Positions 4,064-34,742 of a stretch of DNA of 64,000 nt are shown here, one piece after another (the first letter of the stretch is position 1; each line of letters opens with the position of its first letter). A program made the position numbers and the translations under genes. The stretch is taken from NCBI GenBank assembly GCA_035552595.1, contig DASZKZ010000083.1:2538-66537 (forward strand), read 5' to 3'. The notes under the pieces were generated by a model, which saw only the letters and a program-made list of their open reading frames with translations, did no database searches and was not told where the DNA came from. This DNA is from Candidatus Dormiibacterota bacterium. GTDB lineage: Bacteria > Chloroflexota > Dormibacteria > Aeolococcales > Aeolococcaceae.

Positions 4064-5517
4064 GTGTGTGTCTCCATGGTGGTGGGCTGCTGCCAGAGAT
4101 GGACTGTCGCGTAGGCGCGCCACGGTCGCCAGCGCTCGGCACGGGCGCTCAGCTCGCGGGCGCCTCCGCCCCCGGCGCGCGCGAAGGCATGGCCGAGACC
4201 GAGGTCACCGGCGGGGAACGCGTCGGGATCACGCAGCCCGCGCAGGGCGACGTACGTCGCCGTCCACTCGCCGATGCCGCGGATGGACAGCAGCGCCGCC
4301 CGGGCCGCGCCACCGTCAGCGCCGGGGCCGAGGTCGACCTCCCCCGCCGCCAGCGCGGTGGTGAGCCGGCGCAGCGTGGCGGCGCGCTCCCCGGTGAGCC
4401 CGAGCCCATCGAGGTCGGCCTCGGCGATCAGCGTCGCCGACGGGAAGAGCCGGTCGACGTTGTGGCGGGGATGGCGCAGCGGTGTGCCCAGCTGCTCGGT
4501 GAGCCGGGCGGCCAGCGCGGTGGCCCGAGCCACCGACACCTGCTGGCCGAGAACGGCGCGGACAGCGATCTCCTCGGCGTCCGCGCAGCCGGGCACGCGC
4601 AGGCCCGGCCGGGCCGAGACCAGCGGCGTCAGCAGCGGATCGGCGCAGAGCACGGCGGCGATCGACCCCGGATCGGCGTCGACATCGAAGAGGCGACGGC
4701 AGCGATCCACGGCCGCGCCCAGGTCGCGGACGTCGTCGAGCCACAGCCGCACCAGCAGCTGCGTGGACTGGGGCTCGAGCTCGACCACCGCCGCTCCGTG
4801 GGGCAGCGAGAGGGCGCGAGTCAGCGTGGTGGCGGTGCAGACCTCGACGCCGCGGACGGCCCGCGCCGCGAAGAACGCCAGCAGGGCGGCCCCGTCGAAG
4901 GGCGGCCGGACCCCGAGGCGGAGAACGATGGCGCCCTCCCCGTCGTGCCCGGAGGCGCCGCGACGGCGCAGCTCGGTCGGGGGGCGGCCGGTGCCCGACC
5001 TCACCTCGCTGTTGAACTGGCGCAGTGATGCGTACCCGGCGCTGAAGGCGACGTCGGTGATGGGCATCCCCGTCTGCTCGATGAGGGTGCGCGCGGTCTG
5101 CAGACGGCGCATCCGCGCCAGCGTCAGCGGTCCCGCCCCGACCGTCCCCGAGAGGACGCGGTGGAGATGTCGCTCGCTGACCTGGAGACGGCGGGCCACG
5201 GCCGCCACCCCGGCCCCGCCATCCGCCGCTCCCGAGGCGATCAGGCGCAGGGCACGGTCGGCGAGGCGATCGCCGGCGGCGGGCTGCAGCGAGCCCGGGG
5301 CGAGGTGGGGACGGCAGCGCAGGCAGGCTCGGAAGCCCGCGGCCTCGGCGGCGGCGGCCGTGGCGTAGAAGCGCACGTTGGCGCTCTTCGGCGTCTGCGC
5401 CGGGCAGACCGGGCGGCAGTAGATTCCCGTGCTGGTGACCGCCGTGAAGAACCTGCCGTCGAAGCGGGCGTCGCGGCTGGTGATCGCCCGGTAACAGGCC
5501 TGGAAGTCGTCGTGCAT
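4060..5517 (-). CDS. alkA: Ada N-terminal (Zn methylphosphotriester/AraC HTH) fused to AlkA-type DNA-3-methyladenine glycosylase II
   Basis: The N-terminus CYRAITSRDARFDGRFFTAVTSTGIYCRPVCPA ... ACLRCRP is the Ada Cys4 Zn domain. The middle region is AraC-type HTH. The C-terminal half has an HhH-GPD-like region (SIRGIGEWTATYVALRGL..PDAFPAGD). Same fusion and neighbour as M. tuberculosis Rv1317c/Rv1316c. Confidence 0.85.
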   Translation of the reverse strand: MHDDFQACYRAITSRDARFDGRFFTAVTSTGIYCRPVCPAQTPKSANVRFYATAAAAEAAGFRACLRCRPHLAPGSLQPAAGDRLADRALRLIASGAADGGAGVAAVARRLQVSERHLHRVLSGTVGAGPLTLARMRRLQTARTLIEQTGMPITDVAFSAGYASLRQFNSEVRSGTGRPPTELRRRGASGHDGEGAIVLRLGVRPPFDGAALLAFFAARAVRGVEVCTATTLTRALSLPHGAAVVELEPQSTQLLVRLWLDDVRDLGAAVDRCRRLFDVDADPGSIAAVLCADPLLTPLVSARPGLRVPGCADAEEIAVRAVLGQQVSVARATALAARLTEQLGTPLRHPRHNVDRLFPSATLIAEADLDGLGLTGERAATLRRLTTALAAGEVDLGPGADGGAARAALLSIRGIGEWTATYVALRGLRDPDAFPAGDLGLGHAFARAGGGGARELSARAERWRPWRAYATVHLWQQPTTMETHT

Positions 5518-5575
5518 GAGCGCAGCATGGCGGCCCGCTGGTGGCGTCCGCTGGCGGTTTTCGGACCAACCGTGG

Positions 5576-6541
5576 TCAGATGGTGAGGACGACCTTGCCG
5601 GTGGCGCGGCGCTCGTCGATGAGGCGCAGGGCTGCGACCGCGTCGTCGAGGGCGAAGCTGGCTCCCACCACCGGCGCGACCAGGCCGCTCTCGATCATCG
5701 GTGCGAGCCCGTCGGCGGTGGTGGCGAAGAGACCGGGGTCGTCGCGCAACCATGCCCCCCAGGCGGCACCGACAACGGAGATGTTGCGCAGCAGCAGGCG
5801 ATTGGCCGCCACCGTGGGGATCCGCCCCTCCGTGAACCCGACCACCACCAGGCGCCCGCCGGGAGCCAGGCAGCGCAGGCTCTCGTCGAAGCGGTCGCCG
5901 CCGACGGGGTCGACGATGGCGTCGGCGCCCCGTCCCTCGTTGAGCGCGCGGAGCGCGGCAGGCCAGTCACCGTCGGTGACGACCACCGCCTGAGCCCCGG
6001 CGCGGTGGGCGATCTCCGCCTTCTCGGGGCTGCTGGTCACGGCCACGACCTCGGCGCCGAGGGCTCGCGCCACCTGGAGGAAGGCTGTGCCCAGACCACC
6101 CGCGGCGCCGTGCACCACCACCGTCTCACCGGGCCGCAGGCCGGCGCGTCGGGTCAGGGCGAAGTGCGCCGTGTGGTAGTTGAGGATGAAGCCGCCACCC
6201 TGCTCGAAGCTGAACTGCGCCGGCAGCGGCCGGGTCAGGGCGGCGGGGGCCACGGCGATCTCCGCGAAGCCTCCGAGCATGGTGACCGCCATGACCCGGT
6301 CACCGGCCGCGAACCCGCTCTGCTCCGGCGCGTCACGCACCGTCCCGGCCACCTCCACGCCGGGGACGAAGGGCAGATCCGGCTTCATCTGGTAGAGCCC
6401 GCGGCTCATCAGGACCTCGGGAAAGCTGACCCCGGCCGCCGCCACATCGATGAGCACCTGGCCGTCACCCCGGGGCGCGGGCACCTCGGCGGGGCGCAGC
6501 CCCTCGGGGCCGTCGAGCGATTCGAACCGTTGCGCGCGCAT
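5576..6541 (-). CDS. NADPH:quinone oxidoreductase / zeta-crystallin-type MDR
   Basis: Carries PFVPGVEVAGTV, VVVHGAAGGLGTAFLQVA (Rossmann) and GKVVL at the C-terminus. Start uncertain: ATG 6541 preferred, GTG 6559 possible. Confidence 0.85.
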   Translation of the reverse strand: MRAQRFESLDGPEGLRPAEVPAPRGDGQVLIDVAAAGVSFPEVLMSRGLYQMKPDLPFVPGVEVAGTVRDAPEQSGFAAGDRVMAVTMLGGFAEIAVAPAALTRPLPAQFSFEQGGGFILNYHTAHFALTRRAGLRPGETVVVHGAAGGLGTAFLQVARALGAEVVAVTSSPEKAEIAHRAGAQAVVVTDGDWPAALRALNEGRGADAIVDPVGGDRFDESLRCLAPGGRLVVVGFTEGRIPTVAANRLLLRNISVVGAAWGAWLRDDPGLFATTADGLAPMIESGLVAPVVGASFALDDAVAALRLIDERRATGKVVLTI

Positions 6542-14691: not shown

Positions 14692-16023
14692 ATGAGTGAG
14701 AGCGCCGCCGAGGTCACCGACCTGTTGCAGCGGCTGATCCGCAACGGCTGCATCAACGACGGCACACCCGACTCCGGCCAGGAGATCCGCAACGCCGAGC
14801 TCCTGGCAGCGCACCTGCACGGATGCGGGGTGGAGATGGAGACGTTCGAGTCGCTACCCGGACGCACCTCTCTGTTGGCGCGGCTGGAGGGCACCGACCC
14901 CAGCGCTCCCACGCTGATGCTGATGGGGCACACCGACGTGGTGCCCGTCGATCCGGCGGGATGGCAGCGCGATCCGCTCGGCGGCGAGCTCGTCGACGGG
15001 GTGGTGTGGGGGCGCGGCGCCATCGACATGCTCAACCTGACGGCGTCGATGGCGGTGACCACGCGACGTCTGGGCATCTCCGGGCGCAGGCCTCGCGGCA
15101 CCCTGGCCTTCCTCGCCGTCGCCGACGAGGAGGCGGGCGGCACGCTGGGGGCGGGCTGGCTCGCCGAGCACGCGCCCGAATCGATCCGCTGCGACTACGT
15201 GATCACGGAGAACGGCGGCGTGCTGCAGCACACGCCGGCGGGCGAGCGCATCGGCGTCACCGTGGGCGAGAAGGGGATCTTCTGGTGCCGGATGACGGTG
15301 CACGGCACCCCCGGCCATGGTTCGCGTCCGCTGCACTCCGACAACGCGCTGGTCAAGGCGGCCGAGGTGGTCACCCGGCTGTCGGGGTATCGCACCTCCG
15401 CTCACATCACCGACGCATGGCGCCGCTGGGTCGCGGGGATGGGATTCGAGCCCGCGGTGGCGGCGGCGCTCGTCGATCCAGCGCGGATCTGGGAGGGCCT
15501 CGACGCCCTCCCCCGGGGCCTGGCCGGCATGGCCCACGCGCTCACCCACCTCACGGTCAGCCCCAACGTCGTCCACGGCGGCGAGAAGACCAACGTCATC
15601 CCCGGGCGTGTCGACCTGGAGATCGATCTCCGCAAGGTTCCCGGGCAGACCGACGAGGACGTGATGGAATTCTTCGACACCGCCCTGGGCCCTCTCCGCG
15701 ACGCCGTCACCGTCGAGATCCTGCAGCGCGACGATCCGTCCGAGTCCCCGGTGGACACGCCTCTGTGGGAGGCCGTGACCCGGGCCGCCACCGCGGTGTA
15801 CCCGGAGGCGAGATGCATCCCCACGCTGACCCCGGGAGGAACCGACGCCCGCTTCTTTCGCAACCTGGGGATCCCCGCGTACGGCATGGCGCTGTACAGC
15901 CGGGCCATGTCCCTCGACCAGTTCAGCGCCATGTTCCACGCCAACGACGAGCGCGTCGACCAGGAATCGCTGCGGCTGACGGTCGAGCTCTACGACGCGG
16001 TGGCTCGCGACCTGCTCGGCTAG
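14692..16023 (+). CDS. M20/M25/M40-family metallopeptidase (ArgE/DapE/CPG2-like)
   Basis: Metal-ligand motifs LMGHTDVVP and VADEEAGG, plus a dimerisation insert and C-terminal GGTDARFF. Confidence 0.85.
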   Translation: MSESAAEVTDLLQRLIRNGCINDGTPDSGQEIRNAELLAAHLHGCGVEMETFESLPGRTSLLARLEGTDPSAPTLMLMGHTDVVPVDPAGWQRDPLGGELVDGVVWGRGAIDMLNLTASMAVTTRRLGISGRRPRGTLAFLAVADEEAGGTLGAGWLAEHAPESIRCDYVITENGGVLQHTPAGERIGVTVGEKGIFWCRMTVHGTPGHGSRPLHSDNALVKAAEVVTRLSGYRTSAHITDAWRRWVAGMGFEPAVAAALVDPARIWEGLDALPRGLAGMAHALTHLTVSPNVVHGGEKTNVIPGRVDLEIDLRKVPGQTDEDVMEFFDTALGPLRDAVTVEILQRDDPSESPVDTPLWEAVTRAATAVYPEARCIPTLTPGGTDARFFRNLGIPAYGMALYSRAMSLDQFSAMFHANDERVDQESLRLTVELYDAVARDLLG

Positions 16024-16029
16024 AGGGCG

Positions 16030-16965
16030 CTAGCCGGCCAGCCTCTCGTCCTCGTCCAGGGCCTCGATGCGCATCACCGAGACGCGCTTGCGCATGGTGA
16101 GGACGCCGGGGTGCGACGCCACACAGCTTCCTGAGACCGGCGCGATGTCGGCGTAATCGCGTCCCACGGCGATGGTGACGTAGGTCATCCCCGCGCTCCG
16201 TCCGTGGGTGGGATCGAGGGCGAGCACGCGCGCGTGCCCCTCTCCGTCGGGCACCAGGACCTCCACCCAGGCGTGCGAGCCACCGCTGCCGAGCAGCTGG
16301 CCGGACACGTAGCGCGAAGGCAGGCCGAGCCCGCGCAGCACCGCCAGGAGCACATGGGCGAAGTCCTGGCACACGCCGGTTCGCTTGGCGTAGGCCTCGG
16401 CGGCGGTGGTGTGCACCGAGGTGACGTCGTGCGCGTAGGCCATCACCCGGAAGACGCGCCGGCACGCCGCCGCGGCCAGCTCGTCGCCGTGTAGCCCGGT
16501 GTCGCGGAGCTCGCCGACCAGCTCACCCAGGTCACCGTCGGGGGCGGTGAGCGCGGTGGGGTCGAGCAGGCGGCGGTCATGCAGCAGCGCGCCCGCCACC
16601 AGATGGGGGTGGTCGGTGCTGCGCTCGACCACGCTCCAGGAGATGAAGGTGACCTGTTCGGCGACGTAGGGGACCTCGATGTCGACGACGTGGTTGCCGA
16701 ACTGGTCGCCGGCCGCGCGGATGCTCTTGGGAGTGGCATCGAGGATGCGCACGCTGCGCGCGACGCGGCGCTGGTCTCCGTGGTGCTCACGGGGCTGCAC
16801 CACCAGCCGCTGGCGCAGCCGTCGCACCGGACCCGCATACCTGTAGGTGATGCGCTGATGGATCACGTACGCGCTGCGCCGCACCCGTGTCCAATCGACG
16901 GCCGCGGTGTCGACGCCGGCACCGCCCTCGATGACGTCACCCTCGTCGCCGAACGGAAGCCTCAT
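16030..16965 (-). CDS. Transglutaminase-like cysteine peptidase family protein (TGase-A; N-terminal Bact_transglu_N-type domain + core)
   Basis: Trimmed to ATG 16965 (ATGA overlap with the upstream gene). Core triad pattern GVCQDFAHVLLAVLRGLGLPSRYVSG ... SHAWVEV ... LDPTH. Confidence 0.85.
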   Translation of the reverse strand: MRLPFGDEGDVIEGGAGVDTAAVDWTRVRRSAYVIHQRITYRYAGPVRRLRQRLVVQPREHHGDQRRVARSVRILDATPKSIRAAGDQFGNHVVDIEVPYVAEQVTFISWSVVERSTDHPHLVAGALLHDRRLLDPTALTAPDGDLGELVGELRDTGLHGDELAAAACRRVFRVMAYAHDVTSVHTTAAEAYAKRTGVCQDFAHVLLAVLRGLGLPSRYVSGQLLGSGGSHAWVEVLVPDGEGHARVLALDPTHGRSAGMTYVTIAVGRDYADIAPVSGSCVASHPGVLTMRKRVSVMRIEALDEDERLAG

Positions 16966-17840
16966 ACGGTGGGTCCGAAGTCGCCGCACACCGGCGGCGT
17001 CGAGGTCGACCAGGGGCGCGCGGACAACGGCTCCGCGGCCACGCGCATGGCCGTCAGAGGGGCACTTCCGTAGGTGGTCATCATGGCCACGTCGAGCGCG
17101 TCGCGGCCGCGCCCGATGACCACGCGCCCCGTCCGGCGCGCGTTGTTGCGCGGGTCGAAGGTGTACCAGTGGCCCCCGACATACGCCTCCAGCCAGGCTG
17201 CGAAGTCCATCGGTTCCGAGGGCGGTGGAACGTCGATGTCGGGGAGGTATCCGAAGCAGTACCGGGCGGGGACGTTGAGCCCGCGCAGAAAGGCGACGGC
17301 GAGGTGAGCGAAATCCCTGCACACCCCGCGGCGCTCGACGTAGACGTCGCTGGCACCCGTCGCCGGGGTGCTGCTGCCCATGGTGAAGGTCAGGTTCTCA
17401 TGCACCCAGTCGACGACCGCCTGGACGCGCATCCACCCCTCCGGCACGCCGCCGAACAGCGCCCATGCCGTGTTGGAGAGCCGGTCCGAGTCGCAGTACC
17501 GGCTGGCCAGGGTGAAGTGAAGAACGTCGTCGGGAAGCTCGGCCACGGGCACCTGGGCGGCGTCACCGTCGGCGTCGTCCACCGCGGCGGTGACCTCGAC
17601 CTCCGCCTGGTAGCGGATGCGAGTGCGGCCGGGCCCAAGAGTGAGGCGGCGACAGACATTGCCATAGAGGTCGAGGTGGCGATGCACAGACACCTCGGGC
17701 TCCGTCTCCAGCTGGTTCTCGCGGAGGCCGAGCACGGCGTCGAGGCGCGGCTCCACCTGCAGGGTGAACGCCACCGGCCACTCCAGCTCGTGGACGAACT
17801 CGCAGCCGACTCGCAGCCAGCTGCTGGATCCCTCCGACAC
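16962..17840 (-). CDS. Transglutaminase-like family protein (TGase-B; His position substituted)
   Basis: GTG start at 17840. Has GVCRDFAHLAVAFLRGLNVPARYCFGYL, then MDFAAWLEAYVGGHWYTFDPRN. Cys and Asp are retained, but the residue aligned to His of the paralogues' HAW is Ala. Confidence 0.8.
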   Translation of the reverse strand: MSEGSSSWLRVGCEFVHELEWPVAFTLQVEPRLDAVLGLRENQLETEPEVSVHRHLDLYGNVCRRLTLGPGRTRIRYQAEVEVTAAVDDADGDAAQVPVAELPDDVLHFTLASRYCDSDRLSNTAWALFGGVPEGWMRVQAVVDWVHENLTFTMGSSTPATGASDVYVERRGVCRDFAHLAVAFLRGLNVPARYCFGYLPDIDVPPPSEPMDFAAWLEAYVGGHWYTFDPRNNARRTGRVVIGRGRDALDVAMMTTYGSAPLTAMRVAAEPLSARPWSTSTPPVCGDFGPTV

Positions 17841-17844
17841 GCTC

Positions 17845-17871
17845 GCAGTCTACCGCCGGAGAGTAGTCTGC
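17845..17871. promoter_or_regulatory. Imperfect inverted repeat GCAGTCTAC-N9-GTAGTCTGC in the 39-bp divergent spacer
   Basis: Read directly. Arms are 9 nt with one central mismatch. It occupies most of the 17841..17879 gap between the two divergent start codons. Confidence 0.3.
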
Positions 17872-17879
17872 ATGCACAA

Positions 17880-19310
17880 ATGGCGAAAACCAAGCCGCCG
17901 TCATACCTGCCCGTGGACGCTGACGAATGCGTCGGGCTCGACGGCTTCGCGCGCACGCCGTACGTCGACCTGCTCGGGGCTGTCACGCGCATGCAAAAAG
18001 AGCTGCCCACACTTAGGCGCGGCGCACAAGATTGGTTCGCCAGTCGCGGCGTGACGTTCGGCGTTCCCGACGATGGGGTGGCCCCCATCTTTCCCTTCGA
18101 CCCCATCCCCCGGGTGATCGGCGCCTCGGAATGGCGCGGCATCCACCGGGCCCTCTCGCAGCGGGCGGTGGCGCTCGACCACTTCGTGTCCGATTGCTAC
18201 GGGGCGCAGCGTGCTCTCCGCCACGGAGTGGTTCCCGGGAGGCTGGTGTACAGCAGCACCGGCTATCTGCGCGACATCGTCGGAGTGCGCCCGCCACGGT
18301 CCACCTGGTGTCACGTCGCCGGGATCGACGTGGTCCGGGTCCAGGGCTCGTTCTGCGTGCTCGAGGACAACGTGCGCGTGCCCAGCGGGGTCGCCTACGC
18401 GCTGGAGGCGCGCCGCGCCATGGAGAAGCTGGCTCCGGAATGGTTCGCCACCAGCGCGGTGCGGCGCATCGACGAGTACACCACCCGGTTGCGCCGCATC
18501 CTGCAGAGGATCGCGCCCCGGCCCTGGGAGGCCGCGATCGCTCTTCTCACACCCGGCTCGTACAACGCCGCGTACTACGAGCACAAGCTGCTCGCCGAAG
18601 AGATCGGCGCCATCCTGGTCGAGGGCAACGACCTCATCGTCTCCGAGGACGAGGTGTACCGGCGTGACTCCGACGGCGGCGTCCACCACGTCGACGTCAT
18701 CTACTCGCGGGTCAACAGCGACTGGCTCGACCCGCTGGTCTTCCGCAGCGAGTCGATGCTCGGTGCGCCGGGGATCATCGAGGCGTGGCGTCGCGGCAAC
18801 GTGGCCATCGCCAACGCCCCGGGAACGGGTGTCGCCGACGACAAGGCGATCTATCCCTATGTCCCGGCGCTGATCCGCTACTACCTCGGTGAGGAGCCGC
18901 TGATGGACAACGTGCCCTCCTTCGATCTCGCTGACCCGGCGCAGCGCGCTCACGTCGTCGCCCACTTCGACAAGATGGTCCTCAAGCCGGTGGACGCCAG
19001 CGGTGGCTACGACATCCATTTCGGGCGCCTGGTCAGTGCGGCCGAGCGGGGCGAGCTGATCGCCAGGATCGACTCGGCGCCGCGGCAGTGGCTGGCGCAG
19101 GAGGAGGTGGAGCTGAGCCGGGCCATCTGCATGGACGCCAACGGTGGTCTCGAAGGCCGGGCGGTCGACCTGCGCCCCTTCGTGCTGCTCGATGAGCGAC
19201 CATGGATCTCCCCGGGCGGCCTCACCCGCGTGGCCGCGGATCCCAATCAGCTGGTGGTCAACTCGTCACAGGGTGGAGGCAGCAAGGACACGTGGGTGCT
19301 GAGTCGCTGA
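17880..19310 (+). CDS. Circularly permuted ATP-grasp (type 2; COG2308/DUF404-DUF407) protein
   Basis: Real start is ATG 17880 (MAKTKPPSYLP...) inside track ORF 17169..19310. Diagnostic stretch GNVAIANAPGTGVADDKAIYPYVPALIRYYLGEEPLMDNVPSF and C-terminal NSSQGGGSKDTWVL. Confidence 0.85.
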   Translation: MAKTKPPSYLPVDADECVGLDGFARTPYVDLLGAVTRMQKELPTLRRGAQDWFASRGVTFGVPDDGVAPIFPFDPIPRVIGASEWRGIHRALSQRAVALDHFVSDCYGAQRALRHGVVPGRLVYSSTGYLRDIVGVRPPRSTWCHVAGIDVVRVQGSFCVLEDNVRVPSGVAYALEARRAMEKLAPEWFATSAVRRIDEYTTRLRRILQRIAPRPWEAAIALLTPGSYNAAYYEHKLLAEEIGAILVEGNDLIVSEDEVYRRDSDGGVHHVDVIYSRVNSDWLDPLVFRSESMLGAPGIIEAWRRGNVAIANAPGTGVADDKAIYPYVPALIRYYLGEEPLMDNVPSFDLADPAQRAHVVAHFDKMVLKPVDASGGYDIHFGRLVSAAERGELIARIDSAPRQWLAQEEVELSRAICMDANGGLEGRAVDLRPFVLLDERPWISPGGLTRVAADPNQLVVNSSQGGGSKDTWVLSR

Positions 19311-20197
19311 CCTTCGGGGTGTGGCATCACACCACTCTGCGCTACCTGGATTCGGTCGCGCTCTCCTACAACGAGGTGCGCATGCGCCCGCGCGACCGGG
19401 GCTCGCAGCGCACCATCGCGTTCTCGCTGCTGACCAATCCCGCGGCGGTGCCGCGCAGCCGCATCGACTACTTCGGCAACTACGTCCACCGCGTCGACGT
19501 CACCGCCCCGCACGAGGCGCTGGAGTTCGTCGTCGACACCGTGGTGGAGAACAGCGAGCCACGGCGGCGGCGTCTGCCCATGTGGTCAGCCGACATCCTT
19601 GCCGGCGACCCCCGTCTGGAATATGCGCTTCCCAGCCGTCGGGTGCCGCTGAGCGCGACCACGCGCGCCCTCTGGAGAGAGTGGAACGGCGGCGACGTGA
19701 GCTACGACGCCGTGCTCGCCACCGCGGAGCGCATTCCCAAGGAGCTTCGCTACGTGACCGGGGCGACCACCGTGGAGTCCAGCATCGACGACCTGCTCGC
19801 CGGCGGCGCCGGCGTGTGCCAGGACTTCACCCATCTCTTCCTGGCCATGGTGCGCGGCGCCGGCTGGCCCGCCAGGTACGTCAGCGGCTACCTCGGTCCC
19901 GGCGGTGACCAGACCTTCATCGAAGGCCAGACCCATGCCTGGGCTGAGGTGTGCGGCGCGGACGGCCGCTGGCTGGGTCTCGACCCCACCCACGGCGGCT
20001 TCACCGGTGTGGAGCACCTCCGCCTCGCGGCCGGGCGCGACTACAGCGACGTCGCCCCGCATCGCGGACTCTTCTACGGGACCTCCGAGGGCGTCCGCCC
20101 GGAGGTGCTGGTGCGCGTCACCCGCATGTCCCACCAGCAGGTGGAGACGGTGCACCGCGGGGTGGCGGTGCACTGGCAGCAACAGCAGCAGCAGTGA
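19292..20197 (+). CDS. Transglutaminase-like cysteine peptidase family protein (TGase-C) with C-terminal Q6 tail
   Basis: GTG 19292 with GGTGGAGG 12 nt upstream, overlapping the ATP-grasp gene end by 19 nt. N-terminal Bact_transglu_N-like region and core GVCQDFTHLFLAMVRGAGWPARYVSGYL ... THAWAEV ... LDPTH. Ends HWQQQQQQ. Confidence 0.85.
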   Translation: MGAESLTFGVWHHTTLRYLDSVALSYNEVRMRPRDRGSQRTIAFSLLTNPAAVPRSRIDYFGNYVHRVDVTAPHEALEFVVDTVVENSEPRRRRLPMWSADILAGDPRLEYALPSRRVPLSATTRALWREWNGGDVSYDAVLATAERIPKELRYVTGATTVESSIDDLLAGGAGVCQDFTHLFLAMVRGAGWPARYVSGYLGPGGDQTFIEGQTHAWAEVCGADGRWLGLDPTHGGFTGVEHLRLAAGRDYSDVAPHRGLFYGTSEGVRPEVLVRVTRMSHQQVETVHRGVAVHWQQQQQQ

Positions 20198-20201
20198 CAC
20201 G

Positions 20202-21233
20202 ATGCGTGCGCTGACCTTCGTGGGCCGGCGGCACGTCGAATGGAGGGATGTCCCCGACCCCCGCCTGCAGTCGGCGACGGACGCGATCGTCCGGCCGGTG
20301 GCGGCGACCACGTGTGACGTCGACCTGGTCATCCTGTTGGGCCGCTCACCCCTGCAGCCCCCGTTCGCCCTCGGCCACGAGTGCGTCGCGGAGGTGGTGG
20401 AGGCGGGCGAGGCGATCACCCACGTGGCCGCCGGTGACCTGGTGGTGGTGCCCTGGCACATCTCCTGCGGGCAGTGCGACCGCTGCGCCGCCGGCCTGCA
20501 GGCCCACTGCCGGGCGGTTGCCGAGCTGGCCATGTTCGGTGCGCCGCTCGGGGGTGACTGGGGAGGGCTGTTCTCCGACCTGGTCCACGTCCCCTTCGCG
20601 GACGCGATGCTGGTGCCGCTGCCCACCGGGCTCGACCCCGTCGCTCTCGCCTCGGCGGGCGACAACTGGTCGCTGGCGTGGGGCATGGTGGCGCGCCAGC
20701 TGCAGGCACGGCCCGGAGGCTCGGTGCTGATCATGAGCCGGGGCAGCATCGGGCTGTACGCGTGCGACATCGCCGGGGCGCTGGGTGCGTCGCGGCGGCT
20801 CTACGTCGACCCCGACGCGGGACGGCGCGCCATCGCGGAGAGCTACGGCGCCGAGGTCACCGCCTCGACGGAGCCGCTGCGGCACGGTTTCGACCTGGCC
20901 GTGGAGGCGACCGGGCGGGTCGCCGACCTGGCCACGGCGTGCCGGTCACTGGTGCCCGAGGGGGTGTGCGAGAGCGCGGGGAATCACTTCCGCCGGGGCG
21001 AGCTGCCGCTGTTGGAGATGTACATGTCCGGCCTCACCCTCCACCTCGGGCGCGACAGCACCCGCGCCCACATCCCGGAGGCCCTGCGCCTGGCGGCGGG
21101 CGGAGCCGTCCATCCGCGCCGGGTCGTCTCCGATGTGCTGGACTGGGAGATGCTCCCCACCGTGCTGCCCGAGCTGCGACGCAAGCCGGTCTTCGTGCGC
21201 GGCCCCGTCGACCCGGGCGACCCTACGCGCTGA
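20202..21233 (+). CDS. Zinc-dependent medium-chain alcohol dehydrogenase family protein
   Basis: ATG 20202, 4 nt after the TGase-C stop. Catalytic-Zn motif GHECVAEVVEAG and structural-Zn Cys cluster CGQCDRCAAGLQAHC. Confidence 0.85.
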   Translation: MRALTFVGRRHVEWRDVPDPRLQSATDAIVRPVAATTCDVDLVILLGRSPLQPPFALGHECVAEVVEAGEAITHVAAGDLVVVPWHISCGQCDRCAAGLQAHCRAVAELAMFGAPLGGDWGGLFSDLVHVPFADAMLVPLPTGLDPVALASAGDNWSLAWGMVARQLQARPGGSVLIMSRGSIGLYACDIAGALGASRRLYVDPDAGRRAIAESYGAEVTASTEPLRHGFDLAVEATGRVADLATACRSLVPEGVCESAGNHFRRGELPLLEMYMSGLTLHLGRDSTRAHIPEALRLAAGGAVHPRRVVSDVLDWEMLPTVLPELRRKPVFVRGPVDPGDPTR

Positions 21234-26138: not shown

Positions 26139-27395
26139 ATGTCGCAGCGGGTCATGCTCGTCCTTCCCACCGCCACCTACCGGGCGACGGCCTTCCTTCG
26201 CGCCGCCGAGCGGCTCGGGCTGGACTGCGTGGTGGCCTCGGACGAGGCGCCCACGCTGGCGGCGCTGATGGAGGGACGCGTGCTCACCCTCGACCTCGGC
26301 GATCCCCAGCGCGCGGCCGTCCGCGCCGCGACGTTTGCAGCGCAATGGCCGGTCGACGCGATCATCGGCGTCGACGAGGCATCCGTCCTCACCGCAGCCC
26401 ATCTGGCCACCGCGCTGGGCATCGCGCGCAACCCGATCGAAGCTGTCGGGGCCACCCGCGACAAGCGGCGATTGCGCGCGCGGCTCGACGAGGCATCGGT
26501 GCGGCAGCCACGGTGGGTCGAGGCACGGGGCGACGCCACCGGGTCCGCGGCTGCCCACGCGGCTGCGGCGGTGGGGCTGCCGTGCGTCGTCAAGCCTGTC
26601 AACCTTGCCGCCAGCCGGGGGGTGATCCGCGCGGACACCGGCGCGGAGCTGGCTGCCGCGGTCATCCGGGTCGACAGGCTGCTGCGCCGCCCCGGGCTGT
26701 GCGGTCCCGACGGCGATCCACCCCTGCTGATCGAGGAGTTCATCGCCGGTGCCGAGATCGCCATCGAGGGGCTGCTCAGCGGCGGGGAGTTGACGGTGCT
26801 GGCCGTCTTCGACAAGCCCGACCCGCTCGACGGGCCATTCTTCGCCGAGACGCTGTATGTGACCCCATCGAGACATGACCCCGCCATGCTCGATGATGCC
26901 GTGGCGGTGACCCGCGAGGCGCTGCACGCCCTGGGCCTCGTGGACGGTCCGATCCACGCCGAGCTGCGCCTGGCAGCCAGCGGGGCCGTCTTCCTCGAGG
27001 TGGCGGCACGATCCATCGGCGGCCGATGCTCGTCGGCGCTGCGCATTCTCGATGGAGAGCACGAGATGTCCCTCGAGGAGCTGATCCTCCGCCATGCGTT
27101 GGGGATGCCCCTGGGGCGGCCTGGGCTGGCTCCCGGAGGAGCCGGGGTTCTCATGCTGCCCGTGCCCAGCGCCGGCGTCCTGCACCGGGTGTCCGGCGCG
27201 CGCGAGGCGGCAGCGGTGCCGGGTGTCACCGCCGTGGACCTCACCATCCCGGTCGGCCAGGCGGTGGAATCACTCCCCGAAGGTGATCGATATCTCGGCT
27301 TCGTCGTCGCCCGGGGACCCGACGCCGCGAGCGTCGAGGAATCGCTACGGTGCGCGCAACGCCTGATCGGTGTCGAGGTTGCCGTCCACCGTTGA
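26139..27395 (+). CDS. ATP-grasp domain protein (carboxylate-amine ligase type)
   Basis: Pre-ATP-grasp N-domain, then DKRRLRARL, PCVVKPVNLAASRGVIR, LIEEFIAGAEIAIEG and PIHAELRL, the typical ATP-grasp blocks. Substrate unknown. Confidence 0.75.
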   Translation: MSQRVMLVLPTATYRATAFLRAAERLGLDCVVASDEAPTLAALMEGRVLTLDLGDPQRAAVRAATFAAQWPVDAIIGVDEASVLTAAHLATALGIARNPIEAVGATRDKRRLRARLDEASVRQPRWVEARGDATGSAAAHAAAAVGLPCVVKPVNLAASRGVIRADTGAELAAAVIRVDRLLRRPGLCGPDGDPPLLIEEFIAGAEIAIEGLLSGGELTVLAVFDKPDPLDGPFFAETLYVTPSRHDPAMLDDAVAVTREALHALGLVDGPIHAELRLAASGAVFLEVAARSIGGRCSSALRILDGEHEMSLEELILRHALGMPLGRPGLAPGGAGVLMLPVPSAGVLHRVSGAREAAAVPGVTAVDLTIPVGQAVESLPEGDRYLGFVVARGPDAASVEESLRCAQRLIGVEVAVHR

Positions 27396-32551: not shown

Positions 32552-33568
32552 TCAGGCCTCGGTGACCTTGCGTGCGCGGCTCGGCGCCACGCGGGAGGGC
32601 TCGCCCGGCATCTTGGGGTACTGCGGCGGCCAGGGGGCGTCGGGCAGGCCGGCGGCGACGTCGCGCTCGTGCATGGCGAGCAGCGGCTCCAGCGACTGCG
32701 GGGCGCCGGACATCGGCGCCCACGGGTCGCCATCGCGGGCCACGCGCTGGGGGACGGTGGCGATGGTCAGGGCGTCGGGGTGGATGTCGCCGAGCTCGTC
32801 CCACGCGAAGGGCGTCGACACCTGCGCGCCCGGCCGCGCCCGCACCGACCAGGCGCCGAAGATGGTCTTGTGGGGCGCGTTCTGGTTGAAGTCGACGAAG
32901 ACGCGGCGGCCGCGCTCCTCCTTCCACCATGCCGCGGTGATCAGCTCGGGCCGGCGCCGCTCCAGCTCGCGGGCGACGGCGACCGCGGCGGACCGCACCT
33001 GGTACGAGGTCCAGCGCGGTTGCAGGCGCGCGTACACGTGGATGCCGCGATTGCCGGTCGTCTTGGGAAGGCAGGCGACGTCGAGCTCGTCGAACAGCCT
33101 GCGCACCTCACGCGCCCCCTCCTGCACCATCGCGAAGGTGACCCCGGGGGTGGGATCGAGGTCGATGCGGAGCTCGTCGGCGCGCTCGGGGTCGGACGCC
33201 TTGGCCGGCCACACGTGGAACCCGAGGCAGCCGAGGTTGACCGCCCAGAGCACGTGGGCGAGGTCGGCGGCGACCAGCGCCTGCGAGGTGGTGCCGTTGG
33301 GGGTGCTGACGACGGTGGTCTGCAGCCAGTCGGGGCGGGAGTCGGGCACGCGCTTCTGGAAGAAGGACGGGCCGCCGGCACCATTGGGAAAGCGCTGCAG
33401 CAGCACCGGCCGGTCGCCCATGGCGCGTAGCAACGGCTCCTCCATGGCCTGGTAGTAGCGCACCAGGTCGAGCTTGGTGTCGCCCCGCTCGGGGAAAAAG
33501 ACCTTGCCCGGGCTGGTGATCGGGACGTCCCGTCCGGACGCCCGGACAATCACCGCCTCGTCGTCCAT
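32552..33568 (-). CDS. LigD polymerase domain (NHEJ primase-polymerase, stand-alone)
   Basis: ATG 33568 (MDDEAVIVRASGRDV...). KVFFPERGDTKLDLVRYY, LLQRFPNGAGGPSFFQK, RIDLDP, TTGNRGIHVY and VFVDFNQN are the AEP/PolDom motifs. No ligase or nuclease domain is attached. Confidence 0.85.
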   Translation of the reverse strand: MDDEAVIVRASGRDVPITSPGKVFFPERGDTKLDLVRYYQAMEEPLLRAMGDRPVLLQRFPNGAGGPSFFQKRVPDSRPDWLQTTVVSTPNGTTSQALVAADLAHVLWAVNLGCLGFHVWPAKASDPERADELRIDLDPTPGVTFAMVQEGAREVRRLFDELDVACLPKTTGNRGIHVYARLQPRWTSYQVRSAAVAVARELERRRPELITAAWWKEERGRRVFVDFNQNAPHKTIFGAWSVRARPGAQVSTPFAWDELGDIHPDALTIATVPQRVARDGDPWAPMSGAPQSLEPLLAMHERDVAAGLPDAPWPPQYPKMPGEPSRVAPSRARKVTEA

Positions 33569-33620: not shown

Positions 33621-34742
33621 ATGACAGCCGTTGTGACCACCACCGTCCCCGCTCGCCGCACGTCGGCCGCGCAGCGTGGCTCATCCGATCGCGGCGGAGT
33701 CGTCCGGCTTGCGGGGCTGGGCACGGCGACGCCGCCGCGCCGGGTGAGCCGCGAGGACGTGGTCGAGGTTCTGCCCCGCATCTGGCCGCAGCTGGCGCGA
33801 CGGACCTCACTGCTCGTCGACCCTCTCGACGAGGGCTTTCGCCATCTGCTGCGAGAACCGGCGGAGATGGTGGAGGCGCTGTCGCTCGGCGACCAGACCG
33901 CGCGCTACGCGCAGGCCGCTCCGGACCTCGCGCTCGCCGCCGCCGAGCGAGCCATCGCCAGCGCGGGCGGCCGGCGCGACCGCATCGGTCTGCTGGTGGT
34001 GGCGTCCTGCACCGGGTTCATCCTTCCCGGGCTCGACGCCCATCTCGTCCCCCGCCTCGGACTTCGCCCGGACGTCTGGAGGATGCCCCTCCTGCAGCTG
34101 GGCTGCGCGGGGGGCGCGGGCGGGCTGGCCCGTGCCGCCGACTGGGTGCGCACCCATCCCGGCGAGCAGGCTCTGGTCGTTGCCGTCGAGCTGCCATCCC
34201 TCACATTCCGCCCCGGCGACCACTCCCTCGACAACCTGCTCAGCGCGCTGGTGTTCGGTGACGGCGCCGGGGCCATCGTGCTGGACGGCGGCGGCGGCAC
34301 TCCGACGCCAGGGTTGCGGATCGGTCGTGTGCGCAGCGTGCTCGTGCCGGGCAGCGTCGACGCGCTCGGGTACGACCTCGCGGACGATGGCTTTCGGGTC
34401 ATCCTCTCGCGACGGCTGCCGGCGATCCTGGCGTCGGAGCTGCCCGCGCTGGTCAAGGATTTCCGCGGTGGCGGCGGTGCCGCCGGGCTGGACGCGATCG
34501 CCCTGCACCCCGGTGGGCGCGCCATCGTCGACGCCGTCAAGACGTGCTTGATGCTGAGCGAGACCCAGCTGACCGCCACCAGAGCGGTGCTGCGCACCAC
34601 CGGCAACACCTCGTCGGCAGGGATCGTCTTCGTGCTCGAGGAGCTGGCGACCTCGCCGCCGTCGCCGTCCGGCCGCGGCCTGATCATCGGATTCGGTCCC
34701 GGCCTCACCGTCGAGCTCCTGGAGCTGGAGTGGGGCTGCTGA
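33621..34742 (+). CDS. Type III polyketide synthase
   Basis: Cys-His-Asn triad contexts: VVASCTGFILPGLD, ALHPGGRAIVD, TGNTSSAGIVFVL. C-terminus GFGPGLTVE. Confidence 0.9.
   Translation: MTAVVTTTVPARRTSAAQRGSSDRGGVVRLAGLGTATPPRRVSREDVVEVLPRIWPQLARRTSLLVDPLDEGFRHLLREPAEMVEALSLGDQTARYAQAAPDLALAAAERAIASAGGRRDRIGLLVVASCTGFILPGLDAHLVPRLGLRPDVWRMPLLQLGCAGGAGGLARAADWVRTHPGEQALVVAVELPSLTFRPGDHSLDNLLSALVFGDGAGAIVLDGGGGTPTPGLRIGRVRSVLVPGSVDALGYDLADDGFRVILSRRLPAILASELPALVKDFRGGGGAAGLDAIALHPGGRAIVDAVKTCLMLSETQLTATRAVLRTTGNTSSAGIVFVLEELATSPPSPSGRGLIIGFGPGLTVELLELEWGC

What the first reader, a model, noticed from the sequence alone, without database searches (positions are those of the whole stretch)
16030..21233. 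Circularly permuted ATP-grasp locus with three transglutaminase-like paralogues and no alpha-E partner
Seen: two TGase-like genes on the minus strand (ATGA-coupled) diverge from a plus-strand operon of CP-ATP-grasp, TGase-like and Zn-ADH genes. The plus-strand genes have a 19-nt overlap, then a 4-nt gap. An M20 peptidase gene ends 6 nt from the far TGase gene. Known: comparative genomics links COG2308 ATP-grasp proteins with an alpha-E domain protein and one TGase-like peptidase, and predicts an uncharacterised peptide or amide-ligation system. I know of no biochemically solved member. Inference: the alpha-E component is missing from the neighbourhood, the TGase component is triplicated, and a dehydrogenase is co-translated. 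This suggests a variant of that system with a different product or target.
Basis: partly seen in the sequence, partly recalled or inferred. Interest (0 to 1): 0.65.

Follow-up and report, generated by a model that had tools for sequence, protein, structure and literature searches.

The report
ATP-grasp ligase operon lacking alpha-E
This soil bacterium (phylum Dormibacterota) carries a stripped-down version of a very widespread but still unexplained bacterial ligase/transglutaminase-like operon: the usual 'alpha-E' partner is missing, and the ligase is coupled directly to a transglutaminase-like protein that ends in a run of glutamines, a tail that turns out to mark one component of most such operons elsewhere and is a likely substrate.

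Summary
The genes are TG3 16030-16965(-), TG2 16962-17840(-), CP-ATP-grasp (AG) 17880-19310(+), TG1 19292-20197(+), a Zn-ADH and an M20 peptidase. The ATGA coupling, the 19-nt overlap and the 4-nt and 6-nt gaps are all as described.

No alpha-E is found by Pfam, by a custom HMM on six-frame translations of the window and 47 related loci, or by profile-profile comparison.

TG3-TG2 | AG-TG1 is conserved in all 45 Dormibacterota species representatives. It survives a rearrangement in a 46th locus. The ADH (1/45) and the M20 (about 10/45) are not conserved and are not part of the module.

Canonical relatives (AG ≤49% identical) have alpha-E between AG and the TGase in 53 of 56 loci. The alpha-E loss is therefore real and specific to this clade.

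The three TGases are not a recent triplication. They are 22-34% identical. TG2-like (no catalytic His) and TG3-like genes also accompany alpha-E-containing systems. The deepest alpha-E-less members have only AG+TG1.

New finding: TG1 ends in a conserved ...HWQQQQQQ tail. Among 46 canonical systems, exactly one component (TGase, alpha-E or AG) carries such a tail in 38, and never two.

Verdict: new variant of a known, biochemically unsolved system.

The parts
17880..19310 (+). AG: circularly permuted ATP-grasp amide ligase (COG2308 type), 476 aa, with no alpha-E domain
   Evidence: Pfam PF14403 6e-139 and PF04174 6e-118. PDB 3n6x_A 4e-108. 124 positions are identical with those conserved in canonical AGs, including VLEDN.R.PSG, DVIY.R, DDK, SGGY and LVVNSS.GGGSKDTWV. 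Conserved in 45 Dormibacterota loci at 54-93% identity.
19292..20197 (+). TG1: transglutaminase-like protein (Bact_transglu_N + Transglut_core), 301 aa. It is translationally coupled to AG by a 19-nt overlap. It is the counterpart of the TGase of canonical operons.
   Evidence: Pfam. Cys176/His/Asp triad intact and conserved in 44 orthologues. Closest outside relatives are the 3' TGases of AG-alphaE-TG operons. AF2 pLDDT 94. Foldseek best match 3ISR, TM 0.75. The overlap with AG is kept even in the deepest clade members.
20171..20194 (+). C-terminal His-Trp-Gln6 tail of TG1 (cac tgg cag caa cag cag cag cag, then TGA)
   Evidence: Read directly. A W-Qn motif is present in 43 of 44 orthologues and lies within 1 residue of the C-terminus in 35, with Q-runs of 5 to 15. 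The same kind of tail occurs on one and only one component of 38 of 46 canonical systems.
16962..17840 (-). TG2: transglutaminase-like protein of the 3ISR subfamily, 292 aa. Cys and Asp are kept; the catalytic His is lost.
   Evidence: Pfam Transglut_core 1e-19. PDB 3isr_A 9e-42. The His position is A, Y or variable in 43 orthologues, while GVCRDF and FDPRNN are invariant. Proteobacterial relatives at 44-47% identity also have A or S at that position.
16030..16965 (-). TG3: transglutaminase-like protein, 311 aa, with an intact Cys-His-Asp triad. It is ATGA-coupled downstream of TG2.
   Evidence: Pfam. Triad conserved in 42 orthologues. ATGA read directly. Present in 42 of 45 Dormibacterota loci (the other three are cut at the contig end) and in L046 after a rearrangement.
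17841..17879 (.). 39-nt divergent spacer between the TG2 and AG start codons
   Evidence: Read directly. No sigma-70-like promoter was found in 15.8-21.5 kb. The spacer is about 190 nt in the 74-77% identity subclade.
20202..21233 (+). Zn-dependent alcohol dehydrogenase. This is a neighbour that was tested and excluded from the module.
   Evidence: Pfam ADH_N and ADH_zinc_N. Below every NCBIfam cut-off. Follows TG1 only in L001 among 45 loci.
14692..16023 (+). M20 peptidase. This is a neighbour that was tested and excluded from the module.
   Evidence: Pfam. Adjacent only in the roughly 10 closest loci, together with BipA and a DEAD-box helicase, which fits inherited synteny.

Best explanation
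The locus is a derivative of the widespread CP-ATP-grasp / alpha-E / transglutaminase-like operon (COG2308-COG2307-COG1305, the 'Anbu-type' amidoligase system), specific to a Dormibacterota lineage. The alpha-E gene has been lost.

Anatomy:
- The ligase (AG) is translationally coupled directly to TG1. TG1 is the counterpart of the canonical operon's TGase. It carries the single C-terminal poly-Gln tail that most such systems have.
- A divergent, ATGA-coupled pair sits upstream: TG2, which has lost the catalytic His and is probably a non-catalytic partner, and TG3, which has an intact triad. This pair is an accessory module that also occurs beside alpha-E-containing systems.
- The ADH and the M20 peptidase are bystanders.

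How it most likely works:
- By homology, AG makes an acyl-phosphate from a carboxylate with ATP and couples it to an amine.
- By homology, TG1 and TG3 are Cys-His-Asp thiol enzymes that act on gamma-glutamyl amides by deamidation, transamidation or isopeptide hydrolysis.
- By inference from the tail's distribution, the tethered Gln tail is the shared in-cis substrate or handle. A TGase converts Gln to Glu (or to a gamma-glutamyl amine). AG re-amidates or extends the resulting carboxylates. This would be a ligase/amidase cycle on a built-in protein tail, comparable in logic to Dop/PafA acting on the C-terminal Gln of Pup.
- Alpha-E is dispensable for this core chemistry.
For: Identity and conservation:
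- Pfam and PDB assignments.
- The four genes are kept in 45 of 45 Dormibacterota species representatives while the flanks change.
- They stay together after a rearrangement in L046.

Alpha-E loss:
- No hit in six frames of the window plus 47 loci; best E-value 0.68, against 1e-100 to 1e-140 for positive controls.
- hhalign probability ≤0.2% against AG, TG1, TG2 and TG3, against 98.4% for the TG1-TG2 control.
- Canonical order AG, alpha-E, TG in 53 of 56 metagenome loci and in annotated plasmid loci.
- The window AG is 43-49% identical to the full-length separate-type canonical AGs and ≥62% identical within its own clade.

AG is probably still active: 124 family-conserved positions are retained.

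TG1 is the canonical TGase: best relatives and position.

Tail:
- Conserved in 43 of 44 orthologues.
- 43 of the 150 nearest 50%-identity representatives end in polyQ.
- In 80 loci, 0 of about 765 unrelated ORFs end in polyQ. All 11 non-TG ORFs that do are the AG or the alpha-E of a system whose TGase lacks the tail.
- Exactly one tail in 38 of 46 systems, two or more in 0 (expected 6.3; P about 0.001).

TG2: His lost, Cys and Asp invariant.

TG2-like and TG3-like genes occur beside alpha-E systems.

The minimal AG+TG1 pair, with the same 19-nt overlap, is found in L139-L141 (and, with an overlap of the same length, L047).

ATP turnover by a canonical AG is the only published activity (PMC6376114).
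Against: - No biochemical data exist for any member. The substrate role of the tail is inference only.
- In 8 of 46 canonical systems and 5 of 5 fusion-type systems no clear polyQ tail was seen.
- In about 8 of 43 Dormibacterota orthologues the Q-run is followed by 4-16 further residues. A free C-terminal carboxylate is therefore not strictly required.
- The loci are not phylogenetically independent, so the P-values are optimistic.
- Alpha-E could be encoded elsewhere in the genome. I could test only 64 kb plus ±10 kb of relatives.
- AF2 predicts the tail as a low-confidence helix (pLDDT 56-67), which says nothing about docking.
- No transcript data are available.
Confidence: 0.62

Rival explanations
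1. One reading: this is a variant system with a different product or target, in which the TGase has been triplicated and a Zn-dehydrogenase (and perhaps the M20 peptidase) takes part. That would imply a small-molecule amide pathway.
For: In this genome the ADH start lies 4 nt after the TG1 stop, with no terminator between them. The M20 gene abuts TG3.
Against: - The ADH follows TG1 in only 1 of 45 related loci. The M20 is adjacent only in the closest subclade, together with other syntenic genes.
- No further gene is conserved with the core in more than 24 of 47 loci.
- The TGases are 22-34% identical and belong to old subfamilies.
Confidence: 0.07
2. The system is canonical but split. An alpha-E protein encoded elsewhere in Dormibacterota genomes works with this AG in trans.
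For: The whole genome could not be searched here. Only the 64-kb window and ±10 kb around 47 related loci were covered.
Against: - Alpha-E is adjacent to or fused with AG in 53 of 56 canonical loci.
- AG and TG1 are fused into one translational unit by a 19-nt overlap exactly where alpha-E normally sits, throughout the clade.
- AG has 17 clade-specific changes at otherwise conserved positions, including canonical E68-R69 changed to A-P. This fits a lost partner interface.
Confidence: 0.15
3. Non-homologous displacement: TG3 (or His-less TG2) has taken over the adaptor or scaffold role of alpha-E.
For: TG2 and TG3 are linked to AG-TG1 in all 45 species representatives and in L046. TG2 has lost the catalytic His and so looks like a non-enzymatic partner.
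Against: - TG2-like and TG3-like genes co-occur with alpha-E in L093, L121, L099, L102, Kozakia and Deinococcus.
- Four deep members of the alpha-E-less clade have no TG2 or TG3 within 6-8 kb.
- There is no sequence similarity to alpha-E.
Confidence: 0.12
4. The poly-Gln tail is not a substrate. It could be a docking or assembly element, for example an autoinhibitory pseudo-substrate in a TGase cleft or a tether that holds the complex together.
For: - One tail per system, on any of three components, fits a 'one connector per complex' logic as well as it fits a substrate.
- Some tails are not strictly terminal.
- The tail is absent from AG-alphaE fusion systems, where a covalent link already exists.
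Against: Gln is exactly the residue that TGase-fold enzymes act on, and its deamidation product is an ATP-grasp substrate (established enzymology). Tail length varies from 4 to 15 and the flanking sequence varies widely, which is unusual for a specific docking motif.
Confidence: 0.2
5. The gene cluster is a decaying relic left after alpha-E loss, with no function.
For: None beyond the absence of alpha-E. Some loci show frameshifts (L039-L044), and those that do come from MFD bins.
Against: The ORFs are intact across a phylum at 54-93% identity. Catalytic motifs, the tail and the overlaps are all conserved.
Confidence: 0.02

Closest known systems
CP-ATP-grasp / alpha-E / transglutaminase-like operon, with or without Anbu (COG2308-COG2307-COG1305; Valas & Bourne 2008 PMC3235984; Iyer et al. 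2009, not held; Piasecka et al. 2017 PMC6376114; Fuchs et al. 2017 PMC5666114)
   Same: Same ligase family (43-49% identity to the full-length separate-type AGs, 124 shared conserved positions). Same TGase family at the 3' end of the operon. Same C-terminal poly-Gln tail feature.
   Different: No alpha-E anywhere nearby. AG overlaps TG1 directly. No Anbu. A divergent TG2-TG3 pair is attached.
AG-alphaE fusion protein (about 800 aa) plus TGase, as in Tsukamurella plasmid 21 and S. meliloti pSymB. From my own knowledge, M. tuberculosis Rv2567 is of this type.
   Same: A ligase followed directly by an overlapping TGase-like gene.
   Different: There alpha-E is fused to the ligase, not absent. The AG domain is only about 31-38% identical. 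None of the 5 fusion-type systems examined has a polyQ tail.
TGase pair plus AG plus alpha-E (Kozakia baliensis pKB14400_3) and divergent TG2-like plus AG-alphaE-TG (Deinococcus deserti plasmid 1; metagenome loci L093, L099, L102)
   Same: A TG2-like gene (42-52% identity) with a second TGase next to the ligase. The divergent orientation seen in Deinococcus, L099 and L102 matches the window.
   Different: All of these retain alpha-E.
3ISR, 'putative cysteine protease' of Cytophaga hutchinsonii (structural-genomics entry)
   Same: TG2 matches at 9e-42. The TG1 model superposes with TM 0.75.
   Different: 3ISR keeps the catalytic His (DFHACFE). Window TG2 has Ala there (DFAAWLE). 3ISR has no published function.
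Pup / Dop / PafA (pupylation). This is an analogy of logic only, from my own knowledge.
   Same: A genetically encoded C-terminal Gln is deamidated to Glu and then ligated through an ATP-dependent carboxylate-amine ligase. A hydrolase of the same system reverses the bond.
   Different: The folds are unrelated (a glutamine-synthetase-like ligase, not an ATP-grasp). The tag there is a small separate protein. No Pup, PafA or proteasome genes are present here.
Glutathionylspermidine synthetase/amidase, RimK, LysX-LysW. These are functional analogies, from my own knowledge.
   Same: An ATP-grasp ligase paired with a Cys amidase that reverses its product (Gsp). An ATP-grasp acting on a protein's C-terminal Glu tail (RimK on S6; LysX on LysW). 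3n6x, the closest solved AG, was deposited as 'putative glutathionylspermidine synthase'.
   Different: No membership: different subfamilies, and no LysW-, S6- or CHAP-type partners in the locus.

Membership tests
CP-ATP-grasp/alpha-E/TGase (COG2308-COG2307-COG1305) amidoligase system | COG2308-type circularly permuted ATP-grasp ligase | tested here: met
   PF14403 6e-139 and PF04174 6e-118. 3n6x_A 4e-108. Family motifs retained.
CP-ATP-grasp/alpha-E/TGase (COG2308-COG2307-COG1305) amidoligase system | Alpha-E (PF04168/COG2307) protein encoded next to the ligase or fused to it | tested here: not met
   No Pfam hit in any gene between 12.7 and 25 kb. A custom alpha-E HMM gave a best E-value of 0.68 in six frames of the window plus 47 clade loci. 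hhalign probability ≤0.2% against AG and TG1-3. The ligase is 476 aa, leaving no room for a fused domain.
CP-ATP-grasp/alpha-E/TGase (COG2308-COG2307-COG1305) amidoligase system | Alpha-E absent from the whole genome, not just from the neighbourhood | not testable with these tools
   Only 64 kb plus ±10 kb of relatives are held.
CP-ATP-grasp/alpha-E/TGase (COG2308-COG2307-COG1305) amidoligase system | Bact_transglu_N + Transglut_core protein with a Cys-His-Asp triad in the same operon, 3' of the ligase | tested here: met
   TG1. Nearest relatives are the 3' TGases of canonical operons.
CP-ATP-grasp/alpha-E/TGase (COG2308-COG2307-COG1305) amidoligase system | Anbu (proteasome-type protease) in the operon. 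This is an optional feature of a subset. | tested here: not met
   phmmer with Klebsiella Anbu gave no hit in the window or in the Dormibacterota loci. Anbu was found in only 3 of 80 metagenome loci.
CP-ATP-grasp/alpha-E/TGase (COG2308-COG2307-COG1305) amidoligase system | One C-terminal poly-Gln tail per system.
   TG1 ends in ...HWQQQQQQ. AG, TG2 and TG3 have no such tail. In canonical systems 38 of 46 have exactly one.
3ISR-like TGase subfamily (TG2) | Sequence membership | tested here: met
   3isr_A 9e-42 over residues 74-271. 44-47% identity to proteobacterial members.
3ISR-like TGase subfamily (TG2) | Complete Cys-His-Asp catalytic triad | tested here: not met
   The His position is Ala in the window and variable (A or Y) in 43 orthologues. 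Cys and Asp are invariant.
Pupylation (Pup/Dop/PafA) | Glutamine-synthetase-like ligase or deamidase and a small Pup protein | tested here: not met
   No such Pfam families among the genes between 8.6 and 36.4 kb that were scanned. The resemblance is one of logic only.
Active ATP-dependent amide ligase | ATP hydrolysis coupled to amide-bond formation with a defined substrate | not testable with these tools
   Only orthophosphate release by the Yersinia homologue has been published (PMC6376114). Rv2411c and Rv2567 were negative for GABA-trehalose synthesis.

The most novel reading that the evidence does not exclude
The genetically encoded C-terminal poly-Gln tail is the real substrate of the whole CP-ATP-grasp/TGase system. 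Each system carries one tail, on the TGase, alpha-E or the ligase. A TGase-fold enzyme deamidates or transamidates the tail. The ATP-grasp re-amidates, cross-links or extends it. This would be a self-contained protein-tail Gln/Glu modification cycle, possibly reading nitrogen status. The Dormibacterota AG+TG1 pair would be its natural minimal two-protein form, showing that alpha-E and Anbu are accessories.
Probability: 0.25. Interest if true: 0.85.

Novelty: new variant of a known kind. Interest (0 to 1): 0.6.

Why it matters
The ATP-grasp/alpha-E/TGase operon, with or without Anbu, occurs in many phyla, including Pseudomonas, Klebsiella, rhizobia and mycobacteria. It has been linked to nitrogen limitation. 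Protein tagging has been proposed as its role since 2008-2009. No substrate or product has been found (PMC6376114, PMC5666114).

A variant that is conserved across a phylum and lacks alpha-E shows that the ligase-TGase pair is the irreducible core.

The 'one poly-Gln tail per system' pattern points to a concrete, cheap-to-test substrate candidate. The tests are tail peptides, tail deletions and intact-mass analysis. They can be run in cultured hosts whose operons also carry Q-rich tails, such as Klebsiella and S. meliloti.

Tried and rejected
- NCBIfam has no model for AG or TG1-3.
- The Iyer et al. 2009 paper could not be read. I could not check whether alpha-E-less or polyQ-tailed forms were noted there.
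- The promoter/terminator scan found no sigma-70-like promoter. The only two terminator-like hits lie inside the AG coding region and are at chance level.
- No RNA runs hold the locus, only soil-metagenome DNA contigs, so co-transcription could not be tested.
- Hidden alpha-E homology in TG1, TG2, TG3 or AG was rejected by hhalign.
- A link between the polyQ tail and Anbu was rejected. Anbu is present in 3 of 80 loci, with no correlation.
- A search for further conserved neighbours found none present in more than 24 of 47 loci.
- Foldseek of the TG1 model returned only the uncharacterised 3ISR and distant TGases, TgpA, PeiP and PNGase. It gave no functional transfer.
- The AF2 single-chain model cannot show tail docking.
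- First literature searches on the tail, on COG2308 and on Anbu since 2019 found no functional study.

Full report
**1. What is in the sequence**

The window is about 71% G+C. I called genes by third-position GC and checked them by direct reading. The genes are:
- M20 peptidase, 14692-16023(+)
- TG3, 16030-16965(-), 311 aa
- TG2, 16962-17840(-), 292 aa
- a circularly permuted ATP-grasp protein (AG), 17880-19310(+), 476 aa
- TG1, 19292-20197(+), 301 aa, GTG start
- a Zn-dependent alcohol dehydrogenase (ADH), 20202-21233(+), 343 aa

- ATGA shared by the TG2 stop and the TG3 start.
- A 19-nt AG/TG1 overlap.
- A 4-nt gap before the ADH.
- 6 nt between the convergent M20 and TG3 stops.

Pfam confirms the domains:
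- AG: CP_ATPgrasp_2, 6e-139, residues 77-452.
- All three TG proteins: Transglut_core. The Bact_transglu_N match is clear in TG1 and TG3 and weak in TG2.
- ADH_N and Peptidase_M20 for the two neighbours.

AG matches the structural-genomics entry 3n6x at 4e-108.

**2. Organism and conservation**

The AG protein retrieves 45 loci, one per species, all from Candidatus Dormibacterota MAGs or MAGs of doubtful label. Identity is 54-93%. The top 120 database clusters, down to 62% identity, are labelled Dormibacterota or Chloroflexota. The only runs holding the sequence are soil metagenomes.

A tblastn synteny map shows TG3(-) TG2(-) AG(+) TG1(+) in every locus that is long enough. The ADH follows TG1 only in the closest locus, L001. 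The M20, with BipA and a DEAD-box helicase, is adjacent only in the roughly ten closest loci. Clustering of all neighbours finds no further gene shared by more than 24 of 47 loci.

In L046 (AG 65% identical) the order is AG, TG1, then a convergent TG3-TG2. The four genes stayed together through a rearrangement.

In four deeper members (L047, L139, L140, L141; AG 63-68% identical) only AG and TG1 are present within 6-8 kb. L139-L141 show the same 19-nt overlap, and the L047 coordinates give an overlap of the same length.

The conserved units are therefore AG+TG1, which is the core, and TG2+TG3, which is an accessory pair linked in the main subclade. The ADH and the M20 are bystanders.

**3. Is alpha-E really missing, and is that unusual?**

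Three tests say it is missing:
- No gene between 12.7 and 25 kb hits Alpha-E, and the genes tile that stretch.
- I built an HMM from five annotated alpha-E proteins and domains of Proteobacteria and Actinomycetota. It scores its own sequences at 1e-100 to 1e-140. It finds nothing better than E = 0.68 in the six-frame translation of the window and 47 clade loci, 1.56 million residues in all.
- Profile-profile comparison of alpha-E with AG, TG1, TG2 and TG3 gives probability ≤0.2%. The TG1-versus-TG2 control gives 98.4%.

It is also unusual:
- In annotated plasmid records the relatives are AG, alpha-E, TGase (Sphingomonas, S. meliloti pSymA, Klebsiella with Anbu, Deinococcus), or a large TGase plus AG plus alpha-E (A. 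caldus), or an 800-aa AG-alphaE fusion plus TGase (Tsukamurella, pSymB).
- In 80 metagenome loci retrieved with a TG1-family alignment, alpha-E lies immediately upstream of the TGase in 53 of the 56 loci that have enough upstream DNA.
- The three exceptions are a Dormibacterota-type locus (L056) and two loci (L062, L068) where no AG or alpha-E is seen beside the TGase; L062 has a convergent TG2-like neighbour.

The window AG is 43-49% identical to the full-length separate-type canonical AGs, with no intermediates. The loss therefore dates to the base of this clade.

AG keeps 124 positions that are conserved and identical in canonical ligases. It has 17 clade-specific replacements at otherwise conserved positions, for example canonical Glu68-Arg69 changed to Ala-Pro. 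It looks like an active enzyme that may have lost a partner interface.

Whether alpha-E exists elsewhere in these genomes could not be tested.

**4. The three TGase-like proteins are not a recent triplication**

They share 22-34% identity.

*TG1.* TG1 has the full Cys-His-Asp triad (GVCQDF, SHAWAE, LDPTHG), conserved in 44 orthologues. Its nearest relatives outside the clade are the 3' TGases of canonical operons. An AF2 model is confident (pLDDT 94). Its best structural match is 3ISR, TM 0.75.

*TG2.* TG2 belongs to the 3ISR subfamily (9e-42). It keeps Cys (GVCRDF) and Asp (FDPRNN). At the His position it has Ala, and the position varies (A or Y) across 43 orthologues. Proteobacterial members at 44-47% identity also have Ala or Ser there, while 3ISR itself and the Deinococcus member keep His. 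TG2 is therefore probably a non-catalytic or atypical partner.

*TG3.* TG3 has an intact triad.

*Context elsewhere.* TG2-like genes sit beside alpha-E-containing systems in Kozakia (TGa-TGb-AG-alphaE), Deinococcus deserti (divergent), and loci L092, L093, L099 and L102. TG3-like genes do so in L093 and L121. TGa plus TG2-like pairs also occur alone, for example in Paraburkholderia. The window's architecture is best described as the fuller set seen in L093 (TG2-like, TG3-like, AG, alpha-E, TG) minus alpha-E.

**5.

TG1 ends in ...AVHWQQQQQQ followed by the stop codon.
- The W-Qn motif is present in 43 of 44 orthologues.
- It lies within one residue of the C-terminus in 35.
- Q-runs range from 5 to 15.

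An exhaustive search of 1.84 billion representatives shows the TG1 family proper collapses into about one 50%-identity cluster. Yet 43 of the 150 nearest representatives (≤44% identical) also end in polyQ.

In the 80 metagenome loci, 43 of 79 TGases with a complete C-terminus end in polyQ. Among 776 other stop-to-stop ORFs of at least 200 aa in the same DNA, only 11 do. All 11 are the AG (L061, L064, L082, L083, L094) or the alpha-E (L084, L109, L117, L121, L130, L132) of a system whose TGase lacks the tail.

Tally for the 46 separate-type systems with all three C-termini visible:

| Tail location | Systems |
|---|---|
| TGase only | 27 |
| alpha-E only | 5 |
| AG only | 6 |
| none | 8 |
| two or more components | 0 |

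Several of the 8 systems with no tail by my criterion still end in 2-3 Q. Under independence, 6.3 systems with two or more tails would be expected, giving P of about 0.001. The loci are not phylogenetically independent, so this is optimistic.

The five AG-alphaE fusion systems have no tail.

Q-rich tails are also seen in cultured organisms:
- Klebsiella Anbu-operon TGase: ...HSQQAQQQ
- S. meliloti pSymA TGase: ...EQQGQSQAQN
- Sphingomonas AG: ...QGQQSQIQTQGVR

The tail does not correlate with Anbu, which is present in only 3 of 80 loci.

I found no mention of this tail in the Anbu papers or in full-text searches.

**6. How it most likely works**

*Shown by homology.* AG is an ATP-grasp carboxylate-amine ligase. 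TG1 and TG3 are papain/TGase-fold thiol enzymes.

*Established enzymology (general knowledge).* TGase-fold enzymes act on the gamma-carboxamide of Gln by transamidation, by deamidation as in protein-glutaminase, or on gamma-glutamyl isopeptides. ATP-grasp ligases activate carboxylates, including protein C-terminal Glu tails (RimK, LysX/LysW, TTLLs).

*Inference.* A flexible Gln tail is present exactly once per system on whichever component. It is the obvious shared substrate or handle. A TGase would deamidate or transamidate it. AG would act on the resulting carboxylates. This ligase/amidase cycle is analogous in logic to Dop/PafA on the C-terminal Gln of Pup, or to glutathionylspermidine synthetase/amidase.

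Published data do not contradict this, but they are minimal:
- The Yersinia AG releases phosphate from ATP. No interactions or substrates were found (PMC6376114).
- The operon is induced under nitrogen limitation (PMC6376114, PMC5666114).
- Mtb Rv2411c and Rv2567 did not make GABA-trehalose.
- Mtb Rv2569c, which the authors say has a predicted cysteine-protease domain, was reported to degrade proteins in vitro with a serine-protease inhibitor profile (PMC11081392). That it is the TGase-like gene of the Rv2566-2569c cluster is from my own knowledge.

In the window's clade the same chemistry would be carried out by AG+TG1 alone, so alpha-E would be an accessory.

My confidence is about 0.85 that this is an alpha-E-less derivative of the canonical system with a four-gene (minimally two-gene) module. 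It is about 0.25-0.3 that the tail is a covalent substrate.

**7. Rivals**

- *The ADH or M20 takes part in a small-molecule pathway.* Refuted by synteny.
- *Alpha-E acts in trans from elsewhere.* Not excluded. It is disfavoured by near-universal adjacency in canonical systems and by the fixed AG/TG1 overlap.
- *TG2 or TG3 replaced alpha-E.* Disfavoured, because they co-occur with alpha-E elsewhere and are absent near the deepest alpha-E-less members.
- *The tail is a docking or autoinhibitory element, not a substrate.* This is a live alternative.
- *Decaying relic.* Contradicted by conservation.

**8. Novelty and verdict**

The kind of system is known from comparative genomics and is biochemically unsolved. 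This is a new, phylum-wide variant of it: no alpha-E, direct AG-TG1 coupling, and an accessory TG2-TG3 pair.

The added value lies in three things:
- the minimal AG+TG1 core;
- the degenerate TG2;
- the poly-Gln tail rule.

The tail rule turns an old open question into a simple experiment.

Noticed in passing
window 20171-20194; loci L056-L135, L136, L049, L052: A C-terminal poly-Gln tail is a system-level feature of CP-ATP-grasp/alpha-E/TGase operons. Exactly one of TGase, alpha-E or AG carries it in 38 of 46 systems, never two. It is absent from unrelated ORFs (0 of about 765) and from AG-alphaE fusion systems (0 of 5). Q-rich tails also occur in the Klebsiella, S. meliloti and Sphingomonas operons.
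   Followed up: yes
window 17880-19310 (AG residues 68-69 and 15 others): 17 positions are ≥90% conserved both in canonical AGs and in the alpha-E-less clade but carry a different residue, for example canonical Glu68-Arg69 changed to Ala-Pro, R276S, D279N and F282W. This is a candidate footprint of the lost alpha-E interface.
   Followed up: partly
L055 (Paraburkholderia plasmid) 4110-5819; L053 (Microvirga) 5013-5831; L062: A His-less TG2-like gene, alone or paired with a canonical-triad TGase, also occurs with no ATP-grasp or alpha-E nearby. The TG pair may therefore be an independent module.
   Followed up: partly
L141 442-5308: In one deep alpha-E-less locus the AG-TG1 pair lies just downstream of a LysW/LysX(RimK)/LysY/LysZ-type amino-group-carrier cluster and an ammonium transporter. 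This is a single case and could be coincidence, but LysW is itself a protein with a ligatable C-terminal Glu tail.
   Followed up: no
window 33744-36396: A type III polyketide synthase (chalcone-synthase-like), an ICMT-family methyltransferase and an FAD-dependent oxidoreductase lie side by side. The layout resembles alkylresorcinol or phenolic-lipid (srs-like) clusters.
   Followed up: no
window 26139-27395: A second, ordinary (not permuted) ATP-grasp gene of the L-amino-acid-ligase type (ATP-grasp_4 + LAL_C2) lies 6 kb downstream. There is no sign that it is linked to the locus.
   Followed up: no
window 32552-33568: A stand-alone LigD primase-polymerase domain gene (9e-91), that is, a non-homologous end-joining component.
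   Followed up: no
window 17841-17879: Only 39 nt separate the divergent TG2 and AG start codons, and no sigma-70-like promoter is detectable. The spacer is about 190 nt in the 74-77% identity subclade. Promoters must lie inside coding sequence, or the transcripts are leaderless.
   Followed up: partly
L039-L044 (MFD bins): Several relatives show split or truncated AG, TG1 or TG2 matches that look like frameshifts. I judged these to be assembly errors and not pseudogenes, but did not verify this.
   Followed up: no
L099 2614-3420, L102 2640-3446, L048 109-879: In some canonical loci the Anbu gene lies upstream of AG, with a divergent TG2-like gene beyond it. This differs from the Klebsiella order, where Anbu is last.
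   Followed up: no
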